From: Eledone cirrhosa
Lineage: Eukaryota
Assembly (NCBI GenBank): GCA_964016885.1
Contig: OZ024741.1
Span: forward strand, 241,614,001-241,678,000
DNA: 64,000 nucleotides
Direction: 5' to 3'
The notes beneath the pieces are model-generated. The model saw nothing but the letters and a program-made list of their open reading frames with translations. It had not been told where the DNA came from and did not search any database. The first letter of the stretch is position 1, and the number at the start of each line of letters is the position of its first letter. This document shows positions 62,399 to 64,000 of the stretch, piece by piece. Made by a program: the position numbers and the translations under genes.

Positions 62399-62789
62399 AT
62401 ATCCAGTGCTTTTATCGAGAATGACACAGCTAGAGACTTATAGAATACTTAGCTGTGTACTGGAACTGGTTTGAAAGAGCGGTTGCCGGTCCGGCAGAAA
62501 TTAGAAATTGGAATAAATGCTCTGAAATAGCGATATATATGTGAGTATAGACATAGAATATTCGAAAATATTCTGTATGTTTATAATAAACATTTTGAAG
62601 ACCTAATCGCTATAGAATAGAATACGTCACGTATTACAATTAGATTCTCGATAAAAGCAAGGGAAGTAATCTACGCGTTTCATTCTTGTTAGAATTGACC
62701 GGCAACCGCTCTTTCAAACCAGTTCCAGTACACAGCTAAGTATTCTATAAGTCTCTAGCTGTGTCATTCTCGATAAAAGCACTGGATAT

Positions 62790-62832
62790 GTAGTCCTGAT
62801 GAATTCTAACAAGAATGAAACGCGTAGATTAC
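62790..62832 (+). ncRNA. Minimal type I hammerhead ribozyme
   Basis: Stem I GUAGUC/GAUUAC, CUGAUGA, stem II AUUCU/AGAAU, GAAA, palindromic ACGCGU stem III, GUA cleavage triplet (cut after 62826). Confidence 0.9.
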
Positions 62833-63099
62833 TTCCCTTGCTTTTATCGAGAATCTAATTGTAATACGTGACGTATTCTATTCTATAGCGATTAGGTCTT
62901 CAAAATGTTTATTATAAACATACAGAATATTTTCGAATATTCTATGTCTATACTCACATATATATCGCTATTTCAGAGCATTTATTCCAATTTCTAATTT
63001 CTGCCGGACCGGCAACCGCTCTTTCAAACCAGTTCCAGTACACAGCTAAGTATTCTATAAGTCTCTAGCTGTGTCATTCTCGATAAAAGCACTGGATAT

Positions 63100-63142
63100 G
63101 TAGTCCTGATGAATTCTAACAAGAATGAAACGCGTAGATTAC
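63100..63142 (+). ncRNA. Minimal type I hammerhead ribozyme
   Basis: Identical copy, +310 bp. Confidence 0.9.
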
Positions 63143-63409
63143 TTCCCTTGCTTTTATCGAGAATCTAATTGTAATACGTGACGTATTCTATTCTATAGCG
63201 ATTAGGTCTTCAAAATGTTTATTATAAACATACAGAATATTTTCGAATATTCTATGTCTATACTCACATATATATCGCTATTTCAGAGCATTTATTCCAA
63301 TTTCTAATTTCTGCCGGACCGGCAACCGCTCTTTCAAACCAGTTCCAGTACACAGCTAAGTATTCTATAAGTCTCTAGCTGTGTCATTCTCGATAAAAGC
63401 ACTGGATAT

Positions 63410-63452
63410 GTAGTCCTGATGAATTCTAACAAGAATGAAACGCGTAGATTAC
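63410..63452 (+). ncRNA. Minimal type I hammerhead ribozyme
   Basis: Identical copy, +620 bp. Confidence 0.9.
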
Positions 63453-63719
63453 TTCCCTTGCTTTTATCGAGAATCTAATTGTAATACGTGACGTATTCTA
63501 TTCTATAGCGATTAGGTCTTCAAAATGTTTATTATAAACATACAGAATATTTTCGAATATTCTATGTCTATACTCACATATATATCGCTATTTCAGAGCA
63601 TTTATTCCAATTTCTAATTTCTGCCGGACCGGCAACCGCTCTTTCAAACCAGTTCCAGTACACAGCTAAGTATTCTATAAGTCTCTAGCTGTGTCATTCT
63701 CGATAAAAGCACTGGATAT

Positions 63720-63762
63720 GTAGTCCTGATGAATTCTAACAAGAATGAAACGCGTAGATTAC
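63720..63762 (+). ncRNA. Minimal type I hammerhead ribozyme
   Basis: Identical copy, +930 bp. Confidence 0.9.
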
Positions 63763-64000
63763 TTCCCTTGCTTTTATCGAGAATCTAATTGTAATACGTG
63801 ACGTATTCTATTCTATAGCGATTAGGTCTTCAAAATGTTTATTATAAACATACAGAATATTTTCGAATATTCTATGTCTATACTCACATATATATCGCTA
63901 TTTCAGAGCATTTATTCCAATTTCTAATTTCTGCCGGACCGGCAACCGCTCTTTCAAACCAGTTCCAGTACACAGCTAAGTATTCTATAAGTCTCTAGCT

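What the first reader, a model, noticed from the sequence alone, without database searches (positions are those of the whole stretch)
62697..64000. Tandem 310-bp non-coding monomers each encoding a complete hammerhead ribozyme: candidate retrozyme / circular RNA family
Seen: each monomer has GTAGTC-CTGATGA-ATTCT AACA AGAAT-GAAA-CGCG-TA-GATTAC, i.e. the full catalytic core (CUGAUGA, GAAA, GUA cleavage triplet) with stems I and II. Stem I is extended past an internal loop by a perfect 16-bp helix (62766-62781 ATTCTCGATAAAAGCA / 62839-62854 TGCTTTTATCGAGAAT). Four copies on + look identical by eye and the array runs off the window. Established: type I hammerheads in tandem repeats of a few hundred nt define animal non-LTR retrozymes, which yield circular RNAs, and minimal hammerheads occur in Penelope-like element (PLE) pseudo-LTRs. 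Inference: read-through transcription would be cut at 62826/7, 63136/7, 63446/7 and 63756/7 into 310-nt monomers that could circularise and be copied by rolling-circle reverse transcription using a PLE RT in trans. I cannot tell whether this family is already catalogued.
Basis: partly seen in the sequence, partly recalled or inferred. Interest (0 to 1): 0.92.

Follow-up and report, generated by a model that had tools for sequence, protein, structure and literature searches.

The report
Ribozyme RNA-circle parasite, two-armed insertions
A 310-base self-cutting RNA has spread to well over a thousand places in this animal genome, and the shape of its insertions suggests that a Penelope-type jumping-gene enzyme copied it round and round from an RNA circle, a route that had been proposed for such elements but, in the papers read, not shown.

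Summary
The four + copies are one arm of a two-armed insertion: an inverted arm of 1.5 units lies just upstream (62232-62696), the + arm ends 231 bases past the window, both outer ends sit in (TA)n, and no protein gene is attached. The family has 16,981 ribozyme cores and at least 1,006 insertions. Arms lie back to back. Their outer ends fall at two fixed sites about 35 nt apart, one of each per insertion (45 of 45 and 19 of 20 loci); inner ends are random and joined by microhomology. This is the Penelope-like element (PLE) 'inverted copy plus tail' signature, shared with an autonomous PLE of this genome. Units are nearly identical within a locus and about ten times more different between loci (30 haplotypes in 55 loci), and locus-fixed changes are enriched for A>G: best explained by rolling-circle reverse transcription of monomer circles. 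Stem III is only a 6-nt palindrome, so cleavage should need two ribozymes. Some loci show mixed templates. Expression, cleavage, circles and the partner PLE are not shown. Verdict: a new, young animal retrozyme family with unusually informative insertions.

The parts
62206..62231 (.). (TA)n target, left side of the insertion
   Evidence: TA runs flank the outer ends at nearly all loci examined
62232..62696 (-). Inverted arm, 1.5 units; its outer (3') end is the 'A' site, monomer position 130 (position 1 = first base after the cut, window 62827); boundary blurred by TA microhomology out to 62223
62342..62407 (-). Hammerhead of the inverted arm; predicted cut between 62362 and 62361
   Evidence: HH9, 23 bits, below gathering score; position arithmetic
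62696..62697 (.). Inner junction: the two truncated 5' ends (monomer positions 286 and 181) meet bluntly
62697..64000 (+). Sense arm, identical 310-nt units; 4.95 units in all, ending 231 bases beyond the window at the 'B' site (position 165) in (TA)n
   Evidence: L031 2697-4231
62766..62854 (+). Ribozyme domain of unit 1: 16-bp helix (62766-62781 / 62839-62854), 3-bp helix, stem I, core, stem II; repeated every 310 bases
   Evidence: compensatory changes against a sister family
62790..62832 (+). Type I hammerhead; predicted cuts after 62826, 63136, 63446, 63756 (and one more past the window)
   Evidence: GUA intact in 602 of 602 crossings at 62 loci
62820..62825 (+). Palindromic stem III (ACGCGU): cannot close within one unit, can pair between two ribozymes
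   Evidence: same design described in PMC4209133 and PMC7229834
62885..62991 (+). 3' domain shared with sister families (77% over 97 nt with one of them), holding both end sites; inferred binding and start region for the PLE protein
62956..62991 (+). 'Tail' between the A site (position about 130, followed by an AU repeat that can pair with a TA target) and the B site (position about 165); present in every unit, used at the outer ends

Best explanation
A young non-autonomous retroelement (animal non-LTR retrozyme) moved in trans by an endonuclease-bearing Penelope-like element. Steps: (1) transcription through an arm gives multimers (inferred). (2) Two ribozymes pair through their ACGCGU palindromes and cut after GUA; 310-nt monomers are ligated into circles, which are then stable because a lone ribozyme cannot close stem III (structure shown, chemistry inferred from described retrozymes). 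(3) The PLE protein binds the 3' domain and cuts both strands of a (TA)n tract (target shown, enzyme inferred). (4) Each DNA end primes reverse transcription, one at site A (about 130) and the other at site B (about 165) (shown as fixed paired ends; priming inferred from the in vitro work on a Poseidon element). (5) Both cDNAs run around the circle for about five turns on average and stop at random (lengths and ends shown; circle inferred). (6) The two inner ends are joined through 2-5 nt of microhomology or a few added bases (shown). The result is a ready-made back-to-back pair of arrays, itself able to give new circles. I put PLE-driven insertion at about 0.93 and the monomer circle as the main template at about 0.7.
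For: Ends: 19 of 20 two-armed loci chosen without regard to their ends have one A (121-139) and one B (163-169) end, p 2e-5 against independent ends; 35 of 35 plus 10 of 10 B-anchored two-armed loci with a visible far end have A there. An autonomous PLE of the same genome (938-aa ORF, RVT_1 + GIY-YIG; C-x4-C-xx-C before the endonuclease) also sits in (TA)n with two fixed ends, one of each in 5 of 5 back-to-back copies. A one-sided 30-40 bp tail with an inverted truncated copy is described as PLE-specific and equals the distance between two RT start sites (PMC8557442; PMC11167929). Circle: 445 of 501 full units equal their locus majority; mean pairwise difference 0.34 within against 3.67 between loci; 30 haplotypes in 55 loci; rare variants fill all units of both arms (L060, L065, L081 and others). 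112 inner ends are spread evenly over the monomer (chi-square p 0.57) with 3 near the cut site against 4 expected. 602 of 602 crossings of the cut site keep GUA, 551 with the reference junction, 46 with a variant fixed in its locus, 5 others. Arm lengths are compatible with an exponential (p 0.57 and 0.10) and do not rise with variant load (rho 0.17, p 0.23). Locus-fixed substitutions are A>G in 9 of 25 against 2 of 53 for variants inside loci (p 4e-4; 7 of 23, p 0.003 after dropping one artefact and one site of unclear polarity), as expected if an edited RNA base is copied into every unit. Microhomology of 2 nt or more at 26 of 44 junctions without an insert against 18% by chance. RNA structure is under selection: 11 of 49 pairs change on both sides against a 61%-identical sister family.
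Against: No RNA, cleavage or circle was observed. No autonomous PLE sharing sequence with the monomer was found among 35 GIY-YIG loci, and the control PLE has a 67-nt tail, not 35. Six loci do not fit a pure monomer circle: L083 has the same T-then-C order at position 204 in both arms, L074 and L172 switch haplotype in mid-arm, and L064, L065, L087 (the three longest arrays) repeat a variant in separated units. L035 has no B end and arms of different haplotypes; a sister-family locus, L161, has two B ends. The A>G test was made after seeing the data, rests on 25 sites, is not significant against T>C (7:3, p 0.12), and selection for A-U to G-U changes in helices could give it too. In vitro, Poseidon used uncut RNA and did not need its ribozyme, and 8 of 9 Xenopus retrozyme dimers did not cleave. 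Inner ends show an excess at positions 6-30 (17 against 9, p 0.008, post hoc), which could be trimmed cut ends rather than pausing at the helix.
Confidence: 0.7

Rival explanations
1. Same PLE-driven twin priming, but the usual template is an uncut linear multimer (or a multimeric circle) transcribed from an existing array; the ribozyme is slow or dispensable.
For: L083 carries a two-unit pattern in the same register in both arms, and L065, L074, L172 can be read as copies of mixed multimers. Uncut RNA was the main substrate for Poseidon in vitro (PMC11167929). 31 of 46 loci carry a U-U mismatch at the base of stem II and stem III is minimal, so cleavage may be weak.
Against: Linear copying can only shorten arrays and should let units drift apart, yet within-locus difference is about a tenth of between-locus difference and 30 haplotypes each fill their own loci. 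Single-unit variants are almost never shared between loci. A>G excess is in locus-fixed, not single-unit variants. No locus-fixed change hits the 16 invariant core and stem III positions (0 of 25, only about 1.3 expected).
Confidence: 0.18
2. Insertions start as one to two units per arm and the arrays grow afterwards as satellite DNA by unequal exchange, as proposed for vertebrate retrozymes.
For: The three longest arrays (19 to over 24 units) repeat variants in separated units, so some later growth or conversion is likely. The model is put forward in 10.64898/2026.07.22.740005. Older sister families have arms of at most 2.1 units in 24 loci.
Against: 57 of 62 loci have no recurrent variant. 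Loci with no variant at all already reach 8-12 units per arm. Lengths from 0.2 units upward fit one exponential and do not track variant load. Older families are shorter, not longer, which is the wrong direction for growth with age.
Confidence: 0.07
3. These are tandem pseudo-LTRs of a protein-coding PLE that lies next to them.
For: They carry every PLE end signature, and the genome holds many PLEs (10,597 GIY-YIG candidates).
Against: This locus ends in (TA)n on both sides; no other sequence lies between the two ends at the 70 loci with both ends visible (22 + 36 + 12); 36 sister-family loci show no attached shared ORF.
Confidence: 0.03

Closest known systems
Animal non-LTR retrozymes (coral, mussel, axolotl; Cervera and de la Pena 2020, PMC7229834; Li et al. 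2026, 10.64898/2026.07.22.740005)
   Same: Non-coding tandem units of 150-450 bp, low GC, one type I hammerhead per unit, thousands of copies, PLEs in the same genome. Weak palindromic stem III as in axolotl HHR_Amex1; U-U at the base of stem II as in HHR_Amex2.
   Different: Back-to-back two-armed insertions, a PLE tail, fixed paired ends and (TA)n targeting are not described for retrozymes in the parts read ('inverted' and 'microsatellite' occur 0 times in PMC7229834; 'tail' 0 times in the 2026 preprint). Circles are shown there and only inferred here. No pLTR homologue was found here, unlike 24 of 57 Xenopus families.
Endonuclease-bearing Penelope-like elements (Penelope/Poseidon, Neptune, Naiad; PMC8557442, PMC3846280, PMC11167929)
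   Same: Inverted 5'-truncated copy, head-to-head; 30-40 nt tail at one end; two start sites downstream of a hammerhead; AT-rich or (TA)n targets; microhomology at 5' junctions.
   Different: No ORF. Both arms are long perfect concatemers. The tail is called optional or 'often at one end' in those papers; here one-of-each pairing is almost strict (64 of 65 two-armed loci, 45 of them chosen by their B end).
Non-autonomous Chlamys elements such as MRC1 (passage in PMC8557442)
   Same: Non-autonomous PLE derivatives with multicopy head-to-tail insertions.
   Different: Green-algal; that clade is reported to lack canonical hammerheads, and its non-autonomous members resemble the 3' ends of autonomous families.
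L1 twin priming (recalled, from no call)
   Same: Both target ends prime cDNA and the products join by microhomology, giving an inversion.
   Different: L1 primes at a poly(A) end and at a variable internal site on a linear RNA; here both starts are internal and fixed, there is no poly(A), and both arms exceed unit length.

Membership tests
Animal non-LTR retrozyme | Tandem non-coding unit of about 150-450 bp with low GC | tested here: met
   310 bp, tandem; the 2-kb bin that holds it is 32% GC
Animal non-LTR retrozyme | Type I hammerhead with intact core in each unit | tested here: met
   below the Rfam gathering score; covariation
Animal non-LTR retrozyme | No protein gene; dispersed at many loci | tested here: met
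Animal non-LTR retrozyme | Self-cleavage of the transcript (as monomer or dimer) | not testable with these tools
   folding predicts that a dimer is needed
Animal non-LTR retrozyme | Expressed as linear and circular monomer RNA | tested here: inconclusive
   only assembled contigs of runs of unrecorded kind could be laid; they cannot show RNA ends or circles
Insertion made by an endonuclease-bearing PLE | Inverted 5'-truncated copy in head-to-head arrangement | tested here: met
   20 of 22 loci of the first set and 36 of 40 of the second are two-armed, always minus then plus
Insertion made by an endonuclease-bearing PLE | 30-40 nt tail at one end (two RT start sites) | tested here: met
   A about 130, B about 165; 19 of 20 and 45 of 45
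Insertion made by an endonuclease-bearing PLE | AT-rich / microsatellite target, variable target duplication | tested here: met
   (TA)n at the outer ends; one clear 13-14 bp duplication at L032, most others unreadable inside pure TA
Autonomous PLE (these units as its pLTRs) | RT plus GIY-YIG ORF between the repeats | tested here: not met
Derivative of a known resident PLE | Sequence homology to the pLTR of an autonomous PLE | tested here: inconclusive
   none among 35 GIY-YIG loci out of 10,597 candidates
Viroid-like or HDV-like circle with RNA-RNA replication | Ribozymes on both polarities | tested here: not met
   a hammerhead scan of both strands found the motif on the sense strand only; other ribozyme families gave no Rfam hit

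The most novel reading that the evidence does not exclude
These insertions are a fossil record of the whole cycle: a PLE protein dimer holds one small RNA circle, its two reverse transcriptases start at two fixed sites (one per target strand, which would explain the PLE tail in general), each rolls around the circle several times, and A-to-I edits made on the circle become fixed in every unit of the new arrays. A dimer-only ribozyme keeps the monomer circle closed and so allows long arrays, whereas sister families with a self-sufficient stem III give arms of at most about two units. Near-identical single-haplotype 310-nt cycles in runs labelled as three other organisms leave open, at low odds, that the circle moves between species.
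Probability: 0.35. Interest if true: 0.85.

Novelty: new member of a known kind. Interest (0 to 1): 0.62.

Why it matters
How animal retrozymes get back into the genome is an open point in the papers read: circle templates, tandem cDNA and a PLE helper were proposed (PMC7229834, PMC4209133), while a 2026 preprint leans on local satellite growth. This family gives countable footprints for the first view: the PLE-specific tail and inversion on a ribozyme repeat with no ORF, arrays that look made at insertion, and a monomer bottleneck. The near-strict one-A-one-B pairing also bears on PLE biology: it suggests that the two start sites seen in vitro are shared out between the two target ends in one complex. 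A 310-nt RNA with mapped start sites and resident PLEs with long open frames makes both questions testable in vitro. About 0.18% of the assembly (16,981 x 310 bases) is this one repeat, mostly as long inverted arms that would give double-stranded RNA if read through.

Tried and rejected
Rfam at gathering score: no hit. Sequencing runs: no RNA holder listed; four runs laid as contigs show no molecule ends, so expression was not tested. Search for the partner PLE: monomer and profile against 35 GIY-YIG loci found only sister retrozymes and chance hits; a loose-end motif from run X1 had 0 matches in the assembly; three sister families (36 loci) had no attached shared ORF; end spacings of other resident hammerhead elements did not single out a partner. 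A 30-codon frame in the 3' domain is out of frame in the sister family (alignment): rejected as coding. Arm-length difference between A and B arms (4.0 against 6.8 units in the B-anchored set) was dropped: that set was cut at 7.5 kb from the B end, and the first set shows none. Six apparent arm discordances at positions 126-127 are artefacts of masking 12 bases at the outer end; only L035 and L074 are real. Automatic target-duplication calls are mostly chance matches in TA runs. Assembly artefact was rejected: loci have distinct haplotypes and flanks, and run X1 holds the repeat in 560 records at very high depth. PMC9977147 passages were uninformative; one search returned nothing relevant. Only 20 of the 60 further loci planned for the A>G test were obtained, so that test rests on 46 loci with three or more units. 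Earlier scan notes held nothing for this genome or sequence.

Full report
Observation. The array is as described: period 310, 100% identical, 62697-64000, with a type I hammerhead at 62790-62832 and the 16-bp helix 62766-62781 / 62839-62854 (z -6.3). Rfam finds it only below threshold (HH9, 23 bits, E 0.009). I number the monomer from the first base after the predicted cut (position 1 = 62827). The neighbouring genome stretch shows the + arm ending 231 bases past the window at position 165, in (TA)n. So the locus is: (TA)n, 1.5 units on minus, 4.95 units on plus, (TA)n; no ORF.

The ribozyme. Stems I and II form with probability about 0.9-1.0 in the folded monomer circle, but stem III does not form at all: it is the palindrome ACGCGU, which pairs with a second copy at -7.5 kcal/mol. 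Such ribozymes are described as working in pairs, which allows cutting in multimers and spares monomer circles (PMC4209133, passages; axolotl data in PMC7229834, parts 2-4 of 6 read). A sister family, 61% identical, keeps the helices with changes on both sides in 11 of 49 pairs, against 1-3 for slid controls; this is in effect a two-lineage comparison, so the shuffle counts are not probabilities.

Family size. The genome (G000, 3.0 Gb, host not named by any search; the repeat landscape recalls a cephalopod mollusc, untested) holds 16,981 matches to the core pattern and 1,006 exact junctions of position 165 with TA, controls 0. In the first 31 Mb of C1, 11 of 18 loci carry that junction (listings), which gives roughly 1,500-2,000 insertions.

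Architecture. Set 1: 22 loci from the listing of perfect matches. Set 2: the first 40 of the 100 listed B junctions, 8 kb each. Set 3: the next 20, 2 kb each. In set 1, 20 loci are two-armed and 2 single-armed; 19 of the 20 have one end at 121-139 (A) and one at 163-169 (B), p 2e-5 against independent ends; L035 is the exception. In set 2, 35 have two arms with a visible far end and all 35 have A there; 4 are cut off or hit a gap, 1 is single-armed. In set 3, 10 of 10 visible far ends of two-armed loci are A; 8 are cut off, 2 single-armed. Arms always run minus then plus, so 3' ends face outwards. The commonest A ends are 130 exactly and 131-139 (blurred by an AU repeat that matches the target); B ends centre on 165. 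From the A side, the 100 listed matches show no clear A-A pair once loci of a haplotype that mimics the junction are set aside. The 112 inner ends are even over the monomer (p 0.57), 3 near the cut site against 4 expected, with a post hoc excess at 6-30 (17 against 9); 26 of 44 junctions without an insert overlap by 2 nt or more against 18% by chance, and 12 of 56 have inserts.

This is the PLE signature. [quoted passage not shown] In vitro the tail is the stretch between two internal RT start sites, the enzyme cuts and extends both strands, and a dimer is predicted (PMC11167929, parts 1-2 of 4). An internal control: a resident PLE with a 938-aa frame (RVT_1 just under its cut-off, GIY-YIG over it; nearest Atlas clusters carry GIY-YIG; Neptune/Nematis-type cysteine motif) inserts in (TA)n with two fixed ends 67 nt apart, one of each in 5 of 5 back-to-back copies. 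It shares no sequence with the monomer, and the true partner was not found.

Template. Of 501 full units in sets 1 and 2, 445 equal their locus majority; mean pairwise difference is 0.34 within and 3.67 between loci; 55 B-anchored loci with a full unit hold 30 haplotypes. Rare changes, including a 2-nt deletion, fill all units of both arms. All 602 crossings of the cut site keep GUA and show no unit-to-unit scars, which argues against end-to-end jumping between linear monomers. Arm lengths run from 0.2 to over 24 units, fit an exponential (p 0.57, 0.10, uncensored arms only) and do not track variant load. Locus-fixed substitutions are A>G in 9 of 25, variants inside loci in 2 of 53 (p 4e-4; 7 of 23, p 0.003 after two sites are dropped); 6 of the 7 lie in predicted helices and none follows a G. 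That fits A-to-I editing of a template base copied into every unit (editing preferences recalled), but the test is post hoc, A>G against T>C is only 7:3 (p 0.12), and selection on structure is an alternative. Together these point to a monomer bottleneck at most insertions, that is, a circle.

Against a pure circle. 5 of 62 loci have recurrent variants, plus L172 in set 3. L083 has T then C at position 204 in both arms: both arms from one molecule with starts in the same unit, but a template of at least two units. L074 and L172 switch between existing haplotypes in mid-arm (template switch or mixed multimer). L064, L065 and L087, the three longest arrays, repeat variants in separated units (later exchange, or multimeric template). 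Poseidon used uncut RNA in vitro and 8 of 9 Xenopus dimers did not cut (10.64898/2026.07.22.740005, parts 1-3 of 5). No RNA evidence was obtained.

Relatives. Three older sister families share the 3' domain. Two were parsed (units 314 and 319 nt, about 5% diverged): same minus-plus layout and mostly one A and one B end, with one B-B case (L161) and several eroded ends; arms reach at most 2.1 units in 24 loci. Both have a longer stem III that can close within one unit. An unrelated 490-nt family with a palindromic 6-nt stem III has a 6-unit arm at L057. The link between dimer-only ribozyme and long arms is therefore a lead from four families, confounded by age.

Comparison and novelty. It meets the sequence-level features of animal non-LTR retrozymes; cleavage and circles are untested. 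It works like a PLE insertion but is not a PLE pLTR. Searches found no paper on this family or on tail-bearing two-armed retrozyme arrays; the library lacks most subscription journals, supplements were not seen and no repeat library was searchable. Unchecked notes of this scan report PLE-type ends on other non-coding repeats in other genomes, so the architecture is probably widespread. Verdict: new member of a known kind, of above-average interest because its insertions speak to how retrozymes and PLEs integrate. Interest 0.62.

Noticed in passing
window 62099-62205 (+): A second, unrelated hammerhead (core at 62109) of another abundant element; its 3' end abuts the (TA)n into which the retrozyme inserted. 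Relatives end about 49 or 139 nt after the core pattern, one of each in back-to-back copies at L082 and L091.
   Followed up: partly
window about 60697-61110: Inverted-repeat fragment related to a 490-nt hammerhead repeat family (86% over 139 nt with L057).
   Followed up: partly
L057 1395-5025: An unrelated retrozyme, unit about 490 nt, palindromic stem III, same minus-plus two-armed layout with a 6-unit arm and ends about 56 nt apart.
   Followed up: partly
runs X4, X5, X6 laid on window 62697-63330: Each of three runs labelled as other organisms holds exactly one 340-nt contig (310 + 30, i.e. a closed cycle in a 31-mer graph, my inference), depth 18-34, of a haplotype that is a minority in run X1. 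Kind of library unrecorded; contamination is the likelier cause, spread between species is not excluded.
   Followed up: no
L089 7552-8001, L149, L104 and related loci: Two sister families and the pLTR hammerheads of some resident PLEs have U and A at core positions 3 and 8 instead of C and G, keeping the pair.
   Followed up: no
L074, L172: Haplotype switches in register in the middle of an arm; a possible route to recombinant circles.
   Followed up: partly
C1 loci listed; L081: A haplotype with C>T at position 131 carries in every unit the sequence that the commonest A-end junction makes with the TA target; it may have been captured from a junction.
   Followed up: no
window 55866-58364 (-): 833-aa open frame of a LINE-type element: endonuclease, RT and PHD finger.
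   Followed up: partly
window 51287-52285 (-): 333-aa open frame without Pfam hit; looks like a DNA transposase fragment by recall.
   Followed up: no
window 61575-61670: Small perfect-looking hairpin element next to a TA run, seen by eye; a similar sequence occurs in L118.
   Followed up: no
window 15607-34653 and 2946-8569, 35824-40799: Very long simple satellites (34-bp unit over 19 kb; 70-bp and 14-bp units) with extreme strand skew.
   Followed up: no
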